64,000 bases of DNA, taken from positions 64,218-128,217 of the forward strand of contig JACQXK010000001.1 of NCBI GenBank assembly GCA_016208765.1, written 5' to 3'. The notes under the pieces were generated by a model. That model saw nothing but the letters and a program-made list of their open reading frames with translations. It searched no databases and was not told where the DNA came from. Numbering within the stretch: position 1 is the first letter of the stretch; every line of letters starts with the position of its first letter. Of this stretch, positions 4,292-17,650 are shown in pieces. A program made the position numbers and the translations under genes. Source of the DNA: Candidatus Omnitrophota bacterium. GTDB taxonomy: Bacteria > Omnitrophota > Gorgyraeia > Gygaellales > Profunditerraquicolaceae.

Positions 4292-4687
4292 GGGGGTGAA
4301 AGGGTTCGACCTAAGTACATAGGGTAAGAGCAGCATGCCGCGGACGCGAGGTTAGCCGCGTTAACAATCCTTGCAAAAACTAAAAGCAAACACACCAGTG
4401 TTAAACCGGCTTGCAATGCCAGTAATGGCAATGCCAGCTGGCTGCTTAGTCACCCCTCACTAAGTGTAGGGGTGCCTCTACTCAGCTTGCCTACGGGCTG
4501 AAATAGAGCGCTAGTAGGATAGTCTCGCAGGGTTTGCCTTTGCATGCGGGATGAAATTCAAAAAGGCTGCGGCTTGCGCAATCTTGTTTAGCGGAGTGCG
4601 CAAGAGTAAGAATAAAAGATAAACTAAGCATGTAGCGGCTTTTATCAGATTGCTTGGGGACGGCGGTCCAATTCCGCCCACCTCCAC
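4292..4687 (+). ncRNA. ssrA: tmRNA (ssrA), one-piece
   Basis: The 5' end GGGGGTGAAAGGGTTCGAC is the tRNA-like acceptor/D-analogue. The 3' end GGACGGCGGTCCAATTCCGCCCACCTCCA has a T-arm GGCGG/CCGCC, and the acceptor CACCTCC pairs with the 5' GGGGGTG. An internal ...CAGCTGGCTGCTTAG (..LAA stop) is followed by a hairpin cacccct/aggggtg. The gene lies directly downstream of smpB. Confidence 0.85.
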
Positions 4688-4827
4688 TTAAATTTTCCGA
4701 CAAGGAAAATTTAAGTGGCACTCAAGCGAGCGTTAAACAGCCCGACAAGGGCTGTAGCGAGCGGAGTGCCACCAGGGCTAAGTGGATCCCAAAACAATGT
4801 GTTTTGAGATATTAAAACTAAATACAA

Positions 4828-10864: not shown

Positions 10865-11128
10865 ATGTATTTTGTGTATGTGTTGAAAAGTGAAAAAGAT
10901 AGCTTGTTTTATACTGGTTTTACAAGTGATTTGGAAAGAAGAGTTTTAGAGCATAATCAGGGCCTTCAGGATTCAACCAGGAGCAGGGTACCTTTTAAGC
11001 TTGTTTATTACGAGTGGTGTTTAAATAAACAAGATGCTTTAAGCAGGGAAGAATATTTGAAGAGTGGTATGGGTAAGAAATATATAAGAAATCGTATTAA
11101 GTTGTTTTTAAGTTCTGATAATAAATAG
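10865..11128 (+). CDS. GIY-YIG nuclease-superfamily small protein (YhbQ/UPF0213-like)
   Basis: 87 aa with FYVYVLKS...LFYTGFTSDLERRVLEHN, a GIY-YIG motif. A paralog lies at 32113. Confidence 0.7.
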   Translation: MYFVYVLKSEKDSLFYTGFTSDLERRVLEHNQGLQDSTRSRVPFKLVYYEWCLNKQDALSREEYLKSGMGKKYIRNRIKLFLSSDNK

Positions 11129-13124: not shown

Positions 13125-13202
13125 GGTGGTTGTAGCTCAATTGGTTAGAGCGCTAGACTGTGGCTCTGGAGGTTGCGGGTTCGATCCCCGTCAGCCACCC
13201 CA
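13125..13202 (+). tRNA. tRNA-His (anticodon GTG) with extra 5' G(-1)
   Basis: The sequence is GGTGGTTGTAGCTCAATTGGTTAGAGCGCTAGACTGTGGCTCTGGAGGTTGCGGGTTCGATCCCCGTCAGCCACCCCA. G-1 pairs with discriminator C73, the anticodon loop is CTGTGGC, and CCA is encoded. Confidence 0.85.
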
Positions 13203-13415
13203 TTTTTTCGCTATTGCATAGCTGCAAAATCGATCGTTGTGAGTAAATAGAGAGCAATGACTTTAACGCTTTCGCATCTCTTGATCTATATTTATATAGT
13301 CAAAATGGCTGTATCCCTTAAATACAATTTGACAAAAAAGAGGCAAAAGTGTATTTTAAAATCAAATCAGGAGTGGTATTGTTTGAAGGGGGAACTGCCA
13401 CGTAAAAATAATTAA

Positions 13416-13446
13416 AACCTTCGCTCACAAGGCGAAGGTTTTTTGT
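13416..13446 (+). terminator. Rho-independent terminator (aaccttcgc / gcgaaggtt stem + T6)
   Basis: A perfect 9-bp stem with a 6-nt loop followed by TTTTTTG. It lies 215 nt downstream of tRNA-His, upstream of the restriction-enzyme island. Confidence 0.7.
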
Positions 13447-13466
13447 TTACGAGAAAGGCAGGGTGT

Positions 13467-13619
13467 ATGTTAAGTAAAAAAGTAGAGCAGGATATAAAGG
13501 CTGTTTTAGATTATCTTTGGCATGATGAAAAAAGGCATTATCAAGAAAGTAAATATTGTAGTAAACATATTTTTAGAACTTTGGTAAGATTAGCAAAGAC
13601 TATCAAATATGAACATTAG
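13467..13619 (+). CDS. Small ORF (50 aa, MLSKKVEQDIKAVLDYLWHDEKRHYQESKYCSKHIFRTLVRLAKTIKYEH) translationally coupled to the DpnI-like gene
   Basis: The ORF is below the ORF-track length cutoff. It has an RBS-like aaaggcaggg before the ATG, and its stop TAG overlaps the downstream ATG (ATGAACATTAG). Function is unknown; it occupies the position where R-M controller or antitoxin-like genes sit. Confidence 0.35.
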   Translation: MLSKKVEQDIKAVLDYLWHDEKRHYQESKYCSKHIFRTLVRLAKTIKYEH

Positions 13620-14376
13620 TTTAGATAAGGAAGTGGCTAGATTTTATATTAGTTCTTCACAGAAAAGTAGAGTCTTAACGGAGGATTGGGTCAATAGAGA
13701 AGTTTTTTGCCCTGCCTGCGGTTATAATATTAGGCACTATGAAAATAATAGGCCAGTTGCTGATTTTTATTGTTCTAAGTGTAGCGAAGATTATGAATTA
13801 AAAAGCAAGAAGGATGGCATTGGAAATAAAATCGTTGATGGCGCCTATAGAACGATGATTGAGCGTTTACAAACTAATAAGAATCCTAATTTCTTTTTGT
13901 TAAATTATAATTTAAGAAGTTTTGAAGTTCTAAATTTATTAGTTATACCGAAGCATTTTTTTGTACCACATATAATTGAGGAAAGGAAACCACTCTCACA
14001 ATCGGCAAGGCGCGCAGGTTGGGTTGGTTGTAACATTTCTTTGCAGAATATCCCACAAACAGGCAAAATTTATTACATTAAAGACAAGCAGGTTGAATCA
14101 AAAGAAGAAGTCTTGAGGACTTGGAAGAAAACTCTATTCTTAAGGGAAGAAAAAGAAACCCCAGCAAAAGGATGGGTATTGGATATTATGAATTGTATTG
14201 ATAAACTTGGAAAACGGAGATTTAATCTTGAGGAAGTTTATTTCTTTAAGGAATTTCTAGGAGAAAAGCATCCGCAAAATAGGCATATTAAAGATAAGAT
14301 AAGGCAACAGTTACAATTTCTGAGAGATAAGGGGTATTTGAGATTTATTGCTAGGGGAGAATATGAGCTTACTTAA
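13609..14376 (+). CDS. dpnC: Type IIM methyl-directed restriction endonuclease, DpnI family (cleaves G(m6A)TC in characterised members)
   Basis: 255 aa, near the length of S. pneumoniae DpnI. There are long colinear conserved blocks: SQKSRVLTEDWVNREVFCPACGYN, ENNRPVADFYCSKCSEDYELKSKK, GAYRTMIERLQTNKNPNFF, RKPLSQSARRAGWVGCNI, ILNCIDK-like DIMNCIDKL, and HIKDKIRQQLQFLRDKGYL. These span the catalytic PD-(D/E)XK domain and the C-terminal winged-helix domain. No adjacent methyltransferase is present, as expected for a type IIM enzyme. Confidence 0.85.
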   Translation: MNISLDKEVARFYISSSQKSRVLTEDWVNREVFCPACGYNIRHYENNRPVADFYCSKCSEDYELKSKKDGIGNKIVDGAYRTMIERLQTNKNPNFFLLNYNLRSFEVLNLLVIPKHFFVPHIIEERKPLSQSARRAGWVGCNISLQNIPQTGKIYYIKDKQVESKEEVLRTWKKTLFLREEKETPAKGWVLDIMNCIDKLGKRRFNLEEVYFFKEFLGEKHPQNRHIKDKIRQQLQFLRDKGYLRFIARGEYELT

Positions 14377-14551
14377 AAATTTTGCAATAAGGTTAAGTCC
14401 TTTTTGGGCAAAAATCATTCTGCGAGTTAATTCATTCGCGCGGTTAAAAGATATGTGTCGTGGTTATAGTGAAGATCTAGAGAATTTTACTGAGCTTGTA
14501 TGGGAAGATGTCAAGAAATTGAGCTTTTGTGATAGAAAAACATACCTATAG
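14363..14551 (+). CDS. Small hypothetical protein downstream of the DpnI-like gene (DpnD-position ORF)
   Basis: The ORF-track frame runs 14348..14551. The likeliest start is the internal ATG at 14363 (MSLLKNFAIRLSPFW...). It has no recognisable domain. In the pneumococcal DpnI cassette a small gene of unknown function (dpnD) follows dpnC. Confidence 0.35.
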   Translation: MSLLKNFAIRLSPFWAKIILRVNSFARLKDMCRGYSEDLENFTELVWEDVKKLSFCDRKTYL

Positions 14552-14605
14552 TTTCAGCTTTGGTATGTTTAAGAAAATACTAAAAAGTTTATAACTAGGG
14601 AACGC

Positions 14606-15121
14606 ATGCCAATAACTTTCATTAAAATTCTCCGTAGTAAAAAAAGAAGGCGCACGGTGAGTGCGCATGTGGTAAAAGATGTTCTTATTGTAAGGGCTCC
14701 GGAGAGTATTGCGGAAAGCCGTTTAGAGAAGGTGATTACCGAGCTTAAAACAAAGATCGAACGGAAGCAGTTAAAAGAAGAATTGAATAAAGATGAAAGC
14801 CTTAGACAGAGGGCAAAGGAGTTTAATCAGCAGTATTTTGGAAATCAGCTTAACATTAACTCTATTGAATACGTTACAGATCAGATTTCTAAATTCGGCT
14901 GCTGTAATTTTCGCACCGGATGCATCCGTATTTCCCACCGAATAAGTTTTATGCCGCAGTGGGTAAGGGATTATGTGATTATTCATGAATTGGCGCATTT
15001 AGCAGTTCCTGATCACAGCAAGGCATTCTGGGAGGTAGTAAGCCGTTATAAGTTTGCTGAAAGAGCAAGGGGATATCTTATTGCCGCTGGAACACAAGAC
15101 ATTTTATATAATAAACTGTAG
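14606..15121 (+). CDS. DUF45 / YgjP-like (M48/WLM-like) zinc metallo-hydrolase
   Basis: 171 aa with the HELAHLAVPDHSKAFW HExxH-type motif in the spacing typical of YgjP/DUF45 proteins. This family is frequently found beside restriction and defence genes. Confidence 0.6.
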   Translation: MPITFIKILRSKKRRRTVSAHVVKDVLIVRAPESIAESRLEKVITELKTKIERKQLKEELNKDESLRQRAKEFNQQYFGNQLNINSIEYVTDQISKFGCCNFRTGCIRISHRISFMPQWVRDYVIIHELAHLAVPDHSKAFWEVVSRYKFAERARGYLIAAGTQDILYNKL

Positions 15122-15124
15122 AAT

Positions 15125-15215
15125 CAGGAGTTACAAAATAAATATTTAAAGATAGAAACCCGGATTTGTTTTGTAATCTTTTGATAATTAGAGGGTTGTA
15201 TAAAGCGTCTTATGT
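15125..15215. repeat. Copy A of a ~95-nt conserved AT-rich intergenic element (family also at 21304 and 22338)
   Basis: It is about 75-80% identical to 21304-21398 (GTTACAAAATAAATATTT...AGAAACCCGGATTTGTTTTGTAAT...GATAATTAGA...TATAAA). It contains the internal inverted repeat TTACAAAA...TTTTGTAA and the palindrome AAATATTT. It sits about 55 nt upstream of the SIR2-like gene. Confidence 0.7.
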
Positions 15216-15268
15216 TCTCTAATTCTCAAAAGACAGAAAATGTTAGGATTAATATTTAAGGGATAAAA

Positions 15269-16414
15269 ATGGCGATAATTGTTTTGGGTGCCGGAGCTAC
15301 AAGAGGGGTAAGGTTTGTAGAAAATAATATATGCAAGCCCCCTTTAAATGACGACTTCTTTAGCCAGTTGCAGCATATAAATAATGAGAAACATTTTAAG
15401 ACGATTGAGCAAGCAATAAAAGATGCAATTTCATTATATGGTAAGAATTTCAAAGTAACCATGGAAGAGTTCTTTACGCAAATTGAATTTTTTGTTAAGG
15501 TGCTTCCATACGCGAAAGAAAGACACGGACTAACAAGAGCGGACTTTAACAAAATAAAAGATAACTTTATAAAATCAATATCTGCTGTTTTTGAAGAGTC
15601 AATAACTCAAAAGACTTGTGAATACCATACAGAAATTGTTAAGGCTTTAGTCAAGGATTCTACAATAGTATCATTTAATTATGACTGCCTGATAGATTAT
15701 GCACTGAAAGAAGCAGGAGCGCAGAAATGGAATGCTAGGTATGGATATAGTTTTCCTCTGCGGAAGTATAGACTTATAGGAGATCCATTTTGGAGTTCCT
15801 CTTTATTACATCCACTGGCTACAAGGGGAGAGACTATTAAATTATTGAAATTACATGGTTCGCTTAATTGGCATATACTTAATAAAGGGAAAGGAAATAA
15901 AGGTTCTATAAGGCTTAAGCAACATCTTTATCAAAATGTAGGCACACCACAGTTTACTATAATGCCTCCAGAATGGAATAAGGAGTTATTAAAAGAGCCT
16001 GCTTTTGAAGAGATATGGAAAGAAGCAGCCAGGAGAATTAGAAGAGAGAAAATTTTTGTATTTATTGGATTTTCCTTTGTTCCGACAGATTTGTTTGCTG
16101 CCTCGTTGTTTCAATTAAGTATTGGTAAAGAAAAAATAAAGAAATTAATTATAGTAAATCCAGATAGAGAAGCTAGAAGAAGGACTAGGGCAGTTTTAAA
16201 TAGAGGTATTTCTGATAAAACTCTTATAGTCCAATTTGATACTTTTAAAGATTTTTCACGAGCAGAATTAAAAACTTTATTCTCTGAAAAACGAGATATT
16301 GGAAAATTTGAAAAAATCGAAGAAAGCAAAGCTCCTTTTGGAACAGATTCAAAAACCGTTACTAATAAAGATACGCTAAATTCTCCAGAAGCAGATAAAG
16401 AAAAAAGCTCTTAA
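15269..16414 (+). CDS. Stand-alone SIR2_2-type (defence-associated sirtuin-like NADase fold) protein
   Basis: 381 aa. It has the N-terminal glycine-rich IIVLGAGATRG, the SFNYDCLID block and KLHGSLNWH. These are the conserved blocks of the SIR2_2 (PF13289-like) family seen in ThsA/DSR/SIR2-HerA effectors. There is no Cys4 zinc-ribbon like canonical CobB sirtuins, and no SLOG/HerA/APAZ/STAND partner domain. Confidence 0.7.
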   Translation: MAIIVLGAGATRGVRFVENNICKPPLNDDFFSQLQHINNEKHFKTIEQAIKDAISLYGKNFKVTMEEFFTQIEFFVKVLPYAKERHGLTRADFNKIKDNFIKSISAVFEESITQKTCEYHTEIVKALVKDSTIVSFNYDCLIDYALKEAGAQKWNARYGYSFPLRKYRLIGDPFWSSSLLHPLATRGETIKLLKLHGSLNWHILNKGKGNKGSIRLKQHLYQNVGTPQFTIMPPEWNKELLKEPAFEEIWKEAARRIRREKIFVFIGFSFVPTDLFAASLFQLSIGKEKIKKLIIVNPDREARRRTRAVLNRGISDKTLIVQFDTFKDFSRAELKTLFSEKRDIGKFEKIEESKAPFGTDSKTVTNKDTLNSPEADKEKSS

Positions 16415-16689
16415 TGATGAAAGCATATACGATCAATTATGATTTAAAAGCTCCAAACAGAAATTACGACGGTCTTTTCGTCGAGATAAAAAAATCTCCG
16501 AAATGGTGGCATTTTCTTGAATCGACTTGGATTATTGCGACAGATGAAACTCCTAGCCAAATATGGAATAGATTGATAGCCAATTTGGACAAAAATGATT
16601 ATTTGTTAATTATTGAAGTAAAAGATAATGTTCAAGGGTGGCTTCCTAAAGAAGCATGGGATTGGATCCATGCTAATGTTCCGAGTTAG
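16414..16689 (+). CDS. 91-aa protein of unknown function, translationally coupled to the SIR2-like gene (TAATGATG overlap)
   Basis: The sequence is MMKAYTINYDLKAPNRNYDGLFVEIKKSPKWWHFLESTWIIATDETPSQIWNRLIANLDKNDYLLIIEVKDNVQGWLPKEAWDWIHANVPS. It is Trp-rich with no motif I can assign. Its start codon overlaps the SIR2 stop. Confidence 0.5.
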   Translation: MMKAYTINYDLKAPNRNYDGLFVEIKKSPKWWHFLESTWIIATDETPSQIWNRLIANLDKNDYLLIIEVKDNVQGWLPKEAWDWIHANVPS

Positions 16690-16759
16690 TTTGTTTAAAT
16701 AGAAATATAATTATTAAACTATTTTTCGCCTCTTTGAACTTTTTAATTTTTGTTCTTTC

Positions 16760-17650
16760 TTTGAGTAAGGCGGCAAAATTTGCCCGAACCAAATTTTTCC
16801 GGAGCCAAGCGTAGTTGTGAGGCGGGCGTGCCCGCACCACGCCCGCCTCAAAGGTTTAGTCTTAAAATGTTAATCGGGAGAGGCGCATTATGCCGCATCG
16901 CTAGTCTTACTCGTAGATTGCGGCATAGCGGACGAACCTCTCTAAAAAAATTTTGTTTTTAGCTTGTAACAGAGTGTCGGGTGAGGACGCTGTGGCTTGC
17001 GCCGCCCACACCCGGCGCAAGCCACAGCTGCGCCGAACACGCATAAAAATTAGCAAGAAGCGAGCGGCTCCCTAAAGGGACTTCTTCGGCCTGAAGTAAA
17101 CAAAGGTCTTGGTCGCCGCGAGCGCCATTGCGCGCGAGATGTGGGAGTCTCGCCATTCGCCGCTACCGCGGAGAAATGGCGGGACGGTGCATTCTTAGCT
17201 ATTTCCTTATGAACCAGCTTTACCCCGGTATTAGATACAAGCACCCAACGCTAACAGGATTTGCGTTGGTGTCCCGCTGGTGGGGGAAACGGCAAGAGGC
17301 GGGGCAAGCACCTTTGCCTATCGGAAGGCAAAGTATCCCGCTTTCTGCGGGAAGCATTAACATAGCGGCCGAGGTTCTTTCCGGGAAAAGATGTTGTTTG
17401 TGGGGGGCATTAGGAGATGTTTCATTAGGGTTTTACCCCTGTGGATTTACTTGTGGGGAGAGAATCGAACGCTATTTCGCAAAATTCTTTCGAATGGAAG
17501 AATAACAATGACTCCATTTTTTATTTTGAGGACATAAAGCCTCCCAATCTGTCGTAGAATCAACGAGTTGCGCCGGTTCTAACCTGTTGTGGAGGCTTTG
17601 TACGTCTGGGGCGTTGTGGTAGGTGGGAAACGGAAATAATTCATTGAACT
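16760..17650. other. ~0.9 kb GC-rich, ORF-free, heavily hairpinned block (candidate large structured ncRNA or element terminus); strand unknown
   Basis: Base composition is visibly GC-rich against an AT-rich genome. Only short Arg/Gly-rich six-frame ORFs overlap it on both strands. There are multiple long perfect stems: 16819-16849 (12 bp, gaggcgggcgtg/cacgcccgcctc), 16887-16925 (9 bp, tatgccgca/tgcggcata), and 16993-17030 (16 bp, gctgtggcttgcgccg/cggcgcaagccacagc). No tRNA, RNase P (P4) or SRP motifs were found. Confidence 0.4.

What the first reader, a model, noticed from the sequence alone, without database searches (positions are those of the whole stretch)
15269..16689. Stand-alone SIR2_2-type protein translationally coupled to an uncharacterised 91-aa partner: candidate undescribed two-gene defence module
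ORF 15269..16414 carries the three blocks that define the defence-type SIR2 (SIR2_2) fold: the glycine loop IIVLGAGATRG, SFNYDCLID, and KLHGSLNWH. It lacks the Cys4 zinc-ribbon of housekeeping CobB sirtuins, which argues against a deacetylase role. In characterised systems this domain is fused or paired with a sensor: SLOG in ThsA, the DSR2 C-terminal region, HerA, APAZ/pAgo, or STAND NTPases. None of these is present here. The stop of the SIR2 gene instead overlaps (TAATGATG) the start of a 91-aa Trp-rich ORF. That ORF (…YTINYDLKAPNRNYDGLFVEIKK…WWHFLESTWIIATDE…LLIIEV…GWLPKEAWDWI) has no motif I can assign. The tight coupling, the neighbourhood (DpnI-like REase and DUF45 hydrolase upstream, a conserved intergenic element just 5', and tRNA genes flanking the island) and the absence of a known partner together suggest a NAD+-depleting effector controlled by a new small sensor or adaptor.
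Basis: partly seen in the sequence, partly recalled or inferred. Interest (0 to 1): 0.85.

Follow-up and report, generated by a model that had tools for sequence, protein, structure and literature searches.

The report
SIR2 enzyme with portable tail-and-partner cassette
A predicted NAD-destroying defence enzyme (SIR2) ends in a short floppy tail and is coupled to a 91-residue Cas2-shaped protein. The same "tail plus small protein" unit sits behind several unrelated proteins in other bacteria, which suggests an undescribed plug-in control module, although no binding or function has been tested.

Summary
ORF 15269-16414 is a defence-type SIR2 with no zinc ribbon. Its stop overlaps the start of a 91-aa ORF (16414-16689).

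In unbiased samples SIR2 is next to it in 0 of 74 genome loci and 2 of 80 metagenome loci. The usual upstream partners are unrelated: 2-TM membrane proteins, HicB antitoxins of complete hicAB modules, and PDC-S01 ATPases.

These partners share a disordered C-terminal tail with a roughly 18-residue motif. In the window it is P356-FGTDSKTVTNKDTLNS-P373. The strict motif occurs in 45 of 106 coupled partners and in 1.8% of control ORFs.

DNA similarity between the window and a 2-TM locus begins at the tail and ends at the small gene's stop. One SIR2 clade (cores 66-75% identical) carries three different small-protein lineages. Tail-less SIR2 relatives lack the small gene.

I infer a portable tail-plus-reader cassette that controls the SIR2 effector. 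It resembles the ChAD/SecB cassette of toxin-antitoxin-chaperone systems. Binding, direction of control, NADase activity and defence are all untested.

The parts
15269..16414 (+). SIR2_2-type gene, 381 aa, stop codon included. The confidently folded core spans residues 1 to about 340.
   Evidence: ORF. Pfam SIR2_2 above its gathering score and PADLOC SIR2 models. AF2 mean pLDDT 87.5. Foldseek PDB top hits are SIR2-HerA, DSR2 and ThsA. G7, G9, N137, D139 and H196 are invariant in 45 homologs.
16289..16411 (+). Disordered C-terminal tail of the SIR2 protein (residues 341-381). Most SIR2 homologs lack it.
   Evidence: 10-residue blocks covering residues 351-381 average pLDDT 41-45. Most homologs are about 340-350 aa and cover only 86-87% of the query. 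P0123 (333 aa) and P0124 (339 aa) end before it.
16334..16387 (+). Tail motif P356-FGTDSKTVTNKDTLNS-P373, the proposed docking peptide.
   Evidence: The motif is shared with partners from unrelated families. It is nearly identical to the tail of the 116-aa 2-TM protein of L075 (KAPFGTDSTTVLNRDKLLP), with synonymous codon differences.
16414..16689 (+). 91-aa Cas2-fold small protein, a phrog_1090 family member, translationally coupled to the SIR2 gene through TAATG.
15177..15233 (.). Imperfect inverted repeat (17-nt arms, 23-nt spacer) in the 147-nt gap before the SIR2 start. It could be an operator or a hairpin. Its role is unresolved.
   Evidence: It is only partly conserved in L082 and not recognisable in L083.
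13609..15121 (+). Upstream island genes: DpnI-like methyl-directed restriction enzyme (13609-14376) and YgjP/DUF45-like metallopeptidase (14606-15121). These are context, not part of the module.
   Evidence: The island from 13250 to 16700 has GC 0.31-0.36, against 0.40-0.44 in the flanks. It starts just 3' of tRNA-His at 13126-13202.

Best explanation
The locus is a two-gene operon. The first gene encodes a defence-type SIR2, a predicted NAD+ glycohydrolase with catalytic Asn137 and His196. It carries an extra disordered tail of about 40 residues that contains a motif of about 18 residues (PFGTDSKTVTNKDTLNSP). The second gene is translationally coupled and encodes a 91-aa Cas2-fold protein.

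The tail and the small gene together form a portable cassette that evolution has attached to unrelated proteins.

I infer that the small protein binds the tail motif of the protein encoded just upstream and so controls it. Cas2-fold proteins are typically homodimers, so it probably acts as a dimer. For the SIR2, I think it most likely holds the enzyme inactive, or keeps it stable but restrained. When infection or stress disturbs the complex, the SIR2 would deplete NAD+ and stop growth, following abortive-infection or toxin-antitoxin logic.

The nearest functional parallel is the ChAD tail plus dedicated SecB chaperone cassette of toxin-antitoxin-chaperone (TAC) systems.

Shown here: the genes, the folds, the shared tail motif, movement of the tail with the small gene, and repeated cassette replacement on one SIR2 backbone. 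Inferred only: physical binding, the direction of control, NADase activity and a defence role.
For: 1. SIR2 identity. Pfam and PADLOC hits. Invariant N137 and H196. AF2 core is confident. Only defence SIR2s appear among significant structure matches.

2. The tail is an add-on. It is disordered and absent from the bulk of 1,080 homologs.

3. Linkage follows the tail. The five nearest SIR2 homologs all carry a tail with a hydrophobic-Gly motif, and each locus inspected has an 87-95-aa family member downstream at -4 to +7 nt. Tail-less relatives L078 and L079 have none.

4. Same tail, unrelated partners. The strict motif [FYLWM]G[TSD][DEK] occurs in the last 55 aa of 45 of 106 coupled upstream ORFs, against 1.8% of 1,155 control ORFs. 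The broad motif occurs in 68 of 106 against 10.8%. Positions not used for anchoring are also conserved: Pro at -1 in 34%, Pro at +6 in 37%, a hydrophobic residue at +7 in 69%, and Asp/Glu at +11 in 55%.

5. Partner families. These are 2-TM proteins (27 + 9 + 4 loci), HicB-RHH antitoxins (13, most preceded by HicA), AAA_14-DUF4143 ATPases matching PADLOC PDC-S01 at E 1.2e-54 (3 by N-terminal clustering, 4 by whole-protein clustering), SIR2 (7), and others.

6. Cassette boundary. DNA similarity between the window and L075 starts at the tail codons and stops at the small gene's stop. The upstream SIR2 and 2-TM parts are unrelated. Tail codons differ synonymously.

7. Swapping. SIR2 cores 66-75% identical carry small proteins of three lineages, 29-47% identical between lineages. 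The window's small protein is 79-80% identical to partners of 2-TM proteins. Tail identity tracks small-protein identity across unrelated partner families (Spearman 0.29; 8 of 300 within-family permutations reach it).

8. Solo copies exist in temperate phages, small plasmids and chromosomes. This suggests the small protein is not toxic by itself.

9. Precedent. A transferable C-terminal ChAD tail read by a dedicated downstream chaperone exists in TAC systems, including HicAB-type ones (PMC5105189).
Against: - No binding evidence exists.
- The partner set mixes likely toxins (SIR2, 2-TM) with an antitoxin (HicB). One direction of control does not fit all of them easily.
- One partner family (c15, 4 loci) and a viral group (L195-L200) lack the motif.
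- About a third of family members have no coupled partner, so the small protein also has a partner-independent role.
- The permutation support for tail and small-protein co-variation is modest (8 of 300).
- The locus searches used the peptide pattern GWLPK[ED]AW, so the census favours canonical family members.
- NADase activity and phage defence are extrapolated from homologs that are only 13-16% identical in structure alignments.
Confidence: 0.5

Rival explanations
1. The small Cas2/VapD-like protein is the toxin, a nuclease. The upstream proteins are antitoxins that neutralise it with their disordered C-terminal tail, as in classical type II toxin-antitoxin pairs.
Against: Solo copies without any tail-bearing partner are common in phages, 4.8-kb plasmids and chromosomes, which a free toxin would not tolerate. 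The HicB loci already encode their own HicA toxin. The Asp is not invariant, whereas the invariant residues lie in the GWLPxxAW loop and helix. A SIR2 enzyme, an ATPase or a membrane protein acting as an antitoxin is unparsimonious.
Confidence: 0.13
2. The small protein is a positive factor. It could be an assembly or oligomerisation adaptor, or a stabilising chaperone, that the tail-bearing SIR2 needs in order to be active. In that case it switches the effector on, not off.
For: The evidence for tail docking is the same as for the best explanation. Defence SIR2s work as oligomers or filaments; the top structural matches are dodecameric SIR2-HerA and helical ThsA. Some tails carry the motif twice (L004, L090), which would suit a dimeric reader that bridges partners. 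In TAC the chaperone is needed for its client to function.
Against: No direct data exist. Phage-borne solo copies are harder to explain if the protein activates host suicide effectors.
Confidence: 0.17
3. The small protein is a GhoS-like (type V) RNase that cleaves the upstream gene's mRNA. The conserved 'tail' would then be an RNA recognition site.
Against: Tail conservation is at the amino-acid level, with synonymous codon changes (CCT/CCC, TTT/TTC, GAT/GAC, TCA/TCT) between the window and L075. The motif is degenerate in sequence but keeps residue classes across families.
Confidence: 0.04
4. There is no functional link. The small gene is a mobile 'moron' that happens to land downstream of assorted genes, and the SIR2 works alone.
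For: The family is promiscuous and often solo. More than 1,000 SIR2 homologs appear to be stand-alone.
Against: The tail motif travels with the small gene. Stop and start overlap or nearly abut in most pairs. One SIR2 clade kept a family member through at least two cassette replacements.
Confidence: 0.1
5. The 381-aa protein is a housekeeping protein deacylase (CobB-like sirtuin).
For: It shares the SIR2 superfamily Rossmann fold.
Against: It has no zinc ribbon. It hits Pfam SIR2_2 and not the classical SIR2 family. No classical sirtuin is among the significant fold matches. It lies in a low-GC island beside a restriction enzyme.
Confidence: 0.02

Closest known systems
SIR2 subunit of SIR2-HerA (Nezha) anti-phage systems
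   Same: It is the best structural match (8suw_B, E 6.5e-10, TM 0.55). It is a defence-type SIR2 without a zinc ribbon and of similar size (about 340-400 aa).
   Different: No HerA gene lies next to the window's SIR2. Aligned identity is only about 15%. The partner here is a 91-aa Cas2-fold protein, and the SIR2 carries a C-terminal docking-type tail.
ThsA (Thoeris) and DSR2 SIR2 effectors
   Same: The SIR2 NADase fold matches significantly (8bto_A, 8wya_E, 8xfe_A). The Asn and His catalytic positions are conserved.
   Different: There is no SLOG domain and no TIR ThsB neighbour. There is no large DSR2 C-terminal sensor region. The protein is 381 aa with a disordered tail.
Toxin-antitoxin-chaperone (TAC) systems: ChAD tail plus dedicated SecB-like chaperone (Bordes et al. 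2016, PMC5105189)
   Same: A C-terminal extension of about 40 residues on the upstream protein is read by the product of the next gene. That tail-plus-reader unit is transferable between unrelated clients, including HicAB systems. Here hicA-hicB(+tail)-small operons have the same gene order.
   Different: Clients include SIR2, 2-TM proteins and ATPases, not only antitoxins. These tails share a recognisable motif, whereas the paper says ChAD regions show no significant similarity to one another. Binding is untested here.
Cas2 / VapD / GhoS small ferredoxin-fold proteins
   Different: No cas1 was seen among the neighbours I scanned, and CRISPR arrays were not searched for. The family-defining residues are a Trp-rich hairpin (WWHFLxSTW) and a C-terminal GWLPKEAWDWI loop and helix. 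I did not look for these in Cas2. Identity to Cas2 is 17-20%.
Panacea (PanA) hyperpromiscuous antitoxin domain (from my own knowledge: Kurata et al. 2022; not checked here)
   Same: One conserved small component is paired with many unrelated partners, including membrane proteins.
   Different: Here a shared tail motif on the partners would explain the promiscuity, and the fold is different. This comparison rests on memory and not on a test.

Membership tests
Pfam SIR2_2 / defence-type SIR2 | Profile match above the curated threshold | tested here: met
   PF13289 scores 29.7 bits against GA 24.5, E 7.7e-7. PADLOC SIR2 models reach E 1.5e-12.
Pfam SIR2_2 / defence-type SIR2 | N-terminal Gly-rich NAD loop plus catalytic Asn and His | tested here: met
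   GAGATRG at residue 7, N137 in FNYD and H196 in KLHGS. G7, G9, N137 and H196 are invariant in 45 homologs.
Pfam SIR2_2 / defence-type SIR2 | NAD+ glycohydrolase activity | not testable with these tools
   This needs an enzyme assay.
Classical CobB/Sir2 deacylase | Cys4 zinc-ribbon module | tested here: not met
   Only three Cys and no CxxC. No classical sirtuin is among the significant fold matches.
Thoeris (ThsA/ThsB) | SLOG or Macro domain on the SIR2 protein, and a TIR ThsB gene nearby | tested here: not met
   No such domains are found in the SIR2 protein or in the neighbours scanned.
SIR2-HerA | Adjacent HerA ATPase gene | tested here: not met
   The window neighbours are DpnI, YgjP, an EngB-like GTPase and Pif1. 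A HerA-like gene occurs two genes upstream only in the related locus L083.
DSR2 / SIR2-APAZ-pAgo / SIR2-STAND | Large fused or adjacent sensor (DSR2 C-terminal region, APAZ plus pAgo, or STAND NTPase) | tested here: not met
   The protein is 381 aa with a disordered tail. There are no such Pfam or PADLOC hits.
PHROG phrog_1090 (small protein) | Profile match | tested here: met
   E 3.2e-27 over residues 2-89. The phage, plasmid and L076 homologs match it too. The family is annotated 'unknown function'.
Cas2 (CRISPR adaptation) | Ferredoxin-like beta-alpha-beta-beta-alpha-beta fold | tested here: met
Cas2 (CRISPR adaptation) | Pfam CRISPR_Cas2 match above threshold | tested here: not met
   The window protein gives no hit. 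11 of 40 relatives give only weak hits, best E 0.0017.
Cas2 (CRISPR adaptation) | Genomic association with cas1 and a CRISPR array | tested here: inconclusive
   No Cas1 was seen among the neighbours I scanned in the window. No neighbour family other than the upstream partners recurred across the genome loci, but I did not search with a Cas1 profile or scan for CRISPR arrays.
TAC (toxin-antitoxin-chaperone) | Dedicated SecB-like chaperone as third gene | tested here: not met
   The small protein has a Cas2 fold and no SecB match.
TAC (toxin-antitoxin-chaperone) | C-terminal extension on the client that is recognised by the downstream gene product | tested here: inconclusive
   A shared, transferable tail is shown.
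Known PADLOC-defined defence system | All required components match one system's models | tested here: not met
   Only generic SIR2 models hit, and the small protein has no model.

The most novel reading that the evidence does not exclude
The tail motif plus the Cas2-fold small protein is a general, portable 'handle-and-reader' cassette. Fusing the roughly 40-residue tail to any protein, with the small gene behind it, would put that protein under the control of one common reader. Bacteria would use this to wire interchangeable effectors (SIR2 NADases, membrane-disrupting 2-TM proteins, whole HicAB modules, PDC-S01 ATPases) to one switch. The many solo copies in temperate phages and small plasmids would be decoys or antidotes that disarm such effectors. 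This would be a new organising principle for defence and toxin-antitoxin modules and a non-CRISPR role for the Cas2 fold.
Probability: 0.3. Interest if true: 0.85.

Novelty: new variant of a known kind. Interest (0 to 1): 0.7.

Why it matters
If the small protein reads the shared tail, this locus is one instance of a widespread module of at least 5,000 clusters at 50% identity. The module has not been described in any paper I could find.

It would explain how unrelated effectors are placed under one regulator. It would add a SIR2 system with a new kind of partner and give the Cas2 fold a role outside CRISPR.

It would also offer a small, transferable tag-and-reader pair that can be tested directly by grafting. 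Phage-borne solo copies would become candidate anti-defence proteins.

Tried and rejected
1. SIR2-specific partnership is rejected. tblastn with the SIR2 protein found no homolog within 6 kb of the small-gene homolog in any of 74 genome loci. It found one in only 2 of 80 metagenome loci.

No natural tail-small fusion turned up among longer family members. Those are TM-anchor fusions, C-terminal extensions or a beta-propeller fusion.

3. Sequence search of solved structures gave nothing useful for either protein. Only fold comparison was informative.

4. NCBIfam gave no hit for either protein. PADLOC and NCBIfam gave nothing for the 2-TM partners.

5. Five literature searches found no description of this pairing. 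This covers only the held library.

6. The upstream inverted repeat as a conserved operator is not supported by comparison with L082 and L083.

7. A Rfam identity for the GC-rich stretch downstream was not found.

8. Many singleton 'upstream ORFs' in GC-rich alphaproteobacterial loci look like spurious reading frames (Arg/Pro/Ser-rich). I did not count them as partners.
Full report
**1. Observation**

The two ORFs are real: 15269..16414 (+, 381 aa) and 16414..16689 (+, 91 aa). The junction is TAATGATG, where TAA (16412-16414) shares its last base with ATG (16414-16416).

The quoted SIR2 blocks are at residues 7 (GAGATRG), 136 (FNYD) and 194 (KLHGS). The protein has three Cys and no CxxC pair. 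Pfam SIR2_2 is above its gathering score (29.7 against 24.5 bits), and PADLOC's generic SIR2 models reach 1.5e-12. The 91-aa protein has no Pfam, PADLOC or NCBIfam match.

Upstream lie a DpnI-like methyl-directed restriction enzyme and a YgjP/DUF45-like metallopeptidase. The stretch 13250-16700 has GC 0.31-0.36 against 0.40-0.44 in the flanks, and it begins just after tRNA-His. All three tRNA genes are on the 5' side, so they do not flank the island.

**2. The SIR2 protein**

A search of 5.8 billion proteins gave 1,080 homologs. Most are about 340-350 aa and cover only 86-87% of the query. In an alignment of 45 of them, G7, G9, N137, D139 and H196 are invariant.

The AlphaFold model built on that alignment is confident for residues 1 to about 340 (mean pLDDT 87.5). 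It is disordered at the end, with 10-residue blocks from 351 to 381 averaging pLDDT 41-45.

The 18 best Foldseek matches (probability 0.91 or higher) against solved structures are all defence SIR2s. They are SIR2-HerA (best E 6.5e-10, TM 0.55), DSR2 and ThsA. No classical sirtuin appears among them.

This is therefore a defence-type SIR2 with an extra disordered C-terminal tail. NADase activity is inferred from family membership only.

**3. The small protein**

It has 117 close homologs of about 90 aa in very diverse bacteria. A profile search of 1.84 billion cluster representatives finds 5,013 at E 0.001 or better and 1,397 at 1e-10 or better. It matches phrog_1090, annotated 'unknown function', at 3.2e-27.

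The most conserved residues are a Trp-rich hairpin (WWHFLxSTW) and the C-terminal GWLPKEAWDWI segment.

The Asp at the end of strand 1 (YDL) sits where Cas2 has its catalytic Asp. It is not invariant.

**4. Is the small gene linked to SIR2?**

In general it is not. I fetched 74 loci from species-representative genomes and 80 from metagenomes using the small protein as the query. A SIR2 homolog lies within the fetched flanks in 0 of 74 and 2 of 80 (L082, L083). Even an 81%-identical small protein (L075) follows a 116-aa membrane protein and not a SIR2.

Within the SIR2 family the picture reverses. The five nearest SIR2 homologs (P0119-P0122 and the identical MAG copy) all carry a C-terminal tail. 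Every such locus I could read (L076, L077, L080, L081, L082, L083 and the window) has an 87-95-aa member of the small family at -4 to +7 nt.

Tail-less relatives do not have it. Examples are P0123 (333 aa), P0124 (339 aa), and L078 and L079 at 43-47% identity.

**5. What the small gene is linked to**

Of 155 loci with a family member, 106 have a same-strand ORF ending within 60 nt of its start. After setting aside singleton ORFs that look spurious, I clustered partners by their N-terminal parts alone. The families are:

| Partner family | Loci | Notes |
|---|---|---|
| 2-TM proteins, about 114 aa | 27 | commonest partner |
| HicB-RHH antitoxins | 13 | most preceded by a HicA gene |
| 2-TM proteins, about 128 aa | 9 | Bacteroidota and Patescibacteria |
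| SIR2 | 7 | 4 of these loci were fetched with SIR2 as query |
| Another 2-TM family | 4 | |
| AAA_14-DUF4143 ATPases | 3 (4 by whole-protein clustering) | match PADLOC candidate PDC-S01 at 1.2e-54 |
| 400-aa membrane protein | 2 | |
| Singles | 8 | |

Most HicB genes are preceded by a HicA gene, confirmed by PF07927 in L005. These are therefore hicA-hicB-small operons.

**6. The shared tail**

These unrelated partners end in similar tails. Examples:

- Window SIR2: KAPFGTDSKTVTNKDTLNSPE
- L075 2-TM: KAPFGTDSTTVLNRDKLLPTE
- L031 2-TM: MKMFGTEGHLITGRDLEALSP
- L069 2-TM: EMLGDKDNNLNPHVKNIVFIASP
- L009 HicB: AIYGTKKSPKKFAEIARLP
- L010 ATPase: RIFGTEQTPSATPP
- L089: SYGTESKPVNNLDSLT

The strict pattern [FYLWM]G[TSD][DEK] occurs in the last 55 residues of 45 of 106 coupled partners, against 1.8% of 1,155 other ORFs from the same loci. 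A broader pattern gives 68 of 106 against 10.8%.

After anchoring on the Gly, positions that the pattern does not constrain are also conserved. Pro at -1 occurs in 34%, Pro at +6 in 37%, a hydrophobic residue at +7 in 69% and Asp/Glu at +11 in 55%, followed by Leu/Ile and Pro. The motif lies 20-52 residues from the C-terminus, mostly 21-40. Two partners carry it twice in tandem (L004, L090).

One family (c15) and a viral group (L195-L200) lack it.

**7. Tail and small gene move together**

Aligning the window with L075 at the DNA level, similarity starts at the tail codons (around 16320) and ends at the stop of the small gene. The SIR2 and 2-TM coding parts upstream are unrelated. Identical tail residues often use different codons, which points to selection on the peptide and not on the RNA.

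SIR2 cores that are 66-75% identical carry small proteins of three lineages:

- Window type: 79-91% identical to each other.
- L080/L081: 72% identical to each other and 45-47% to the window type.
- L076: 29-39% identical to all others.

The window's small protein is 79-80% identical to the partners of 2-TM proteins in L075 and L084. The tails differ in step with the small proteins.

Across all pairs of loci whose partners belong to different families, tail identity rises with small-protein identity (Spearman 0.29). Shuffling tails within partner families reached this value in 8 of 300 trials. That is modest but consistent.

I conclude that the tail plus the small gene is a cassette. It has been attached to different proteins and replaced at least twice on this SIR2 backbone.

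**8. Solo copies**

About a third of the loci have no coupled partner. Family members occur alone in several settings:

- On 4,863-bp ColE1-type plasmids of Enterobacteriaceae.
- As opposite-strand inserts in the replication regions of Staphylococcus phages and Bacillus phage phi4B1.
- In 60 phage records and 91 plasmid records overall.
- In 36 viral contigs, where most are solo and two (L181, L182) follow a tail-bearing protein.

Frequent solo occurrence argues that the small protein is not toxic by itself.

**9. Mechanism**

The arrangement matches a known logic. In toxin-antitoxin-chaperone systems the antitoxin carries a C-terminal ChAD extension of about 40 residues. The product of the next gene, a SecB-like chaperone, reads it. 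That tail-plus-reader pair is transferable to other clients, including HicAB systems (PMC5105189).

My best-supported reading is that the Cas2-fold protein docks on the tail motif of the protein encoded upstream and controls it. For the SIR2 I favour restraint or stabilisation until infection or stress breaks the complex, followed by NAD+ depletion.

Several results fit a defence or addiction role but do not prove it. Other tail-bearing partners are typical abortive-infection effectors or defence candidates: 2-TM proteins, the PDC-S01 ATPase and HicAB. The locus also sits in a low-GC island beside a restriction enzyme.

The direction of control is uncertain. The small protein could instead be required for activity, and the HicB case (an antitoxin client) does not fit a simple 'inhibitor of a toxin' picture.

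I rate the other readings lower, for the reasons given under rival explanations. They are: small protein as toxin, a GhoS-like RNase acting on mRNA, chance adjacency, and a housekeeping sirtuin.

**10. Comparison with known systems and novelty**

The SIR2 belongs to the defence-type SIR2_2 family. It is not a member of Thoeris, SIR2-HerA, DSR2, SIR2-APAZ or SIR2-STAND systems, because each defining partner or domain was looked for and not found.

The small protein has a Cas2 fold but fails the Cas2 profile threshold. I saw no cas1 among the neighbours I scanned, but I did not search with a Cas1 profile or for CRISPR arrays.

Five literature searches in the held library found no description of this pairing.

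I class it as a new variant of a known kind: an effector plus a small regulator in a defence or toxin-antitoxin-like operon. There is a real chance that the cassette principle is new.

**11. Limits**

- No binding, activity or phenotype data exist.
- The docking prediction could not be run.
- The locus census used the peptide pattern GWLPK[ED]AW, so it favours canonical family members.
- ORF calling was mechanical.
- Four of the seven SIR2 loci were fetched with SIR2 as the query, so only the 0 of 74 and 2 of 80 figures are unbiased.

Noticed in passing
window 16780-17500: A GC-rich stretch (0.52-0.58 in a 0.33-0.40 background) with no convincing ORF. It has perfect 16-nt (16989-17028) and 13-nt (16818-16850) hairpins. 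Predicted RNA folding is stronger than shuffles on both strands (z -3.7 on + and -5.9 on -). No Rfam family matches. It may be an unannotated structured RNA or a mobile-element remnant between the small gene and the EngB-like GTPase gene.
   Followed up: partly
window 13250-16700: A low-GC island starts right after tRNA-His (13126-13202). It holds a DpnI-like methyl-directed restriction enzyme (13609-14376), a YgjP/DUF45-like metallopeptidase (14606-15121) and the SIR2 pair. No integrase was seen in it.
   Followed up: partly
window 15177-15233: A 17-nt imperfect inverted repeat (TCTTTTGATAATTAGAG / CTCTAATTCTCAAAAGA, 23-nt spacer) in the gap before the SIR2 start. It is only weakly conserved in L082 and absent in L083. 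Its role as operator or hairpin is unknown.
   Followed up: partly
L005 5227-6255; also L008, L009, L096, L101, L108-L113: Three-gene operons hicA, hicB (RHH plus tail motif) and the small protein. The gene order is the same as in toxin-antitoxin-chaperone systems, but a Cas2-fold protein sits where SecB would be.
   Followed up: partly
L164 3001-3282 (Staphylococcus phage P1105 gp49); L163 2995-3276 (Bacillus phage phi4B1); L162 805-1092 (4,863-bp ColE1-type plasmid): Solo family members without a tail-bearing partner. In the phages the gene lies on the opposite strand inside the replication module. In phi4B1 it is not annotated at all, and a probably spurious opposite-strand gene is annotated over its start.
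   Followed up: partly
L004 5620-5985; L090 385-681: The upstream partner carries the tail motif twice in tandem (for example IFGTETHRLRDLSQLPPTG ... PFGTESHQVRDLSELTPTG). This would suit a dimeric reader.
   Followed up: no
proteins P0290, P0342: The small domain is fused directly to an N-terminal transmembrane anchor, with no separate partner. Other members carry long Pro-rich C-terminal extensions (P0277, P0313).
   Followed up: no
L083 226-5596: In the 85%-identical SIR2 locus, the pair is preceded by a HerA-like ATPase (DUF87) and a GHKL-type ATPase. An IS3-family transposase follows it. The surroundings look like a defence island but differ from the window's.
   Followed up: no
L080 281-490: A 69-aa Xre-type HTH gene ends 1 nt before the SIR2 start in this related locus. 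This suggests a three-gene regulator-SIR2-small arrangement there.
   Followed up: no
window 10865-11128 and 4292-4689: An 87-aa ORF with a sequence that looks GIY-YIG-like (not tested with any profile) sits next to tRNA-Pro. A tmRNA gene lies at 4292-4689 (153 bits).
   Followed up: no
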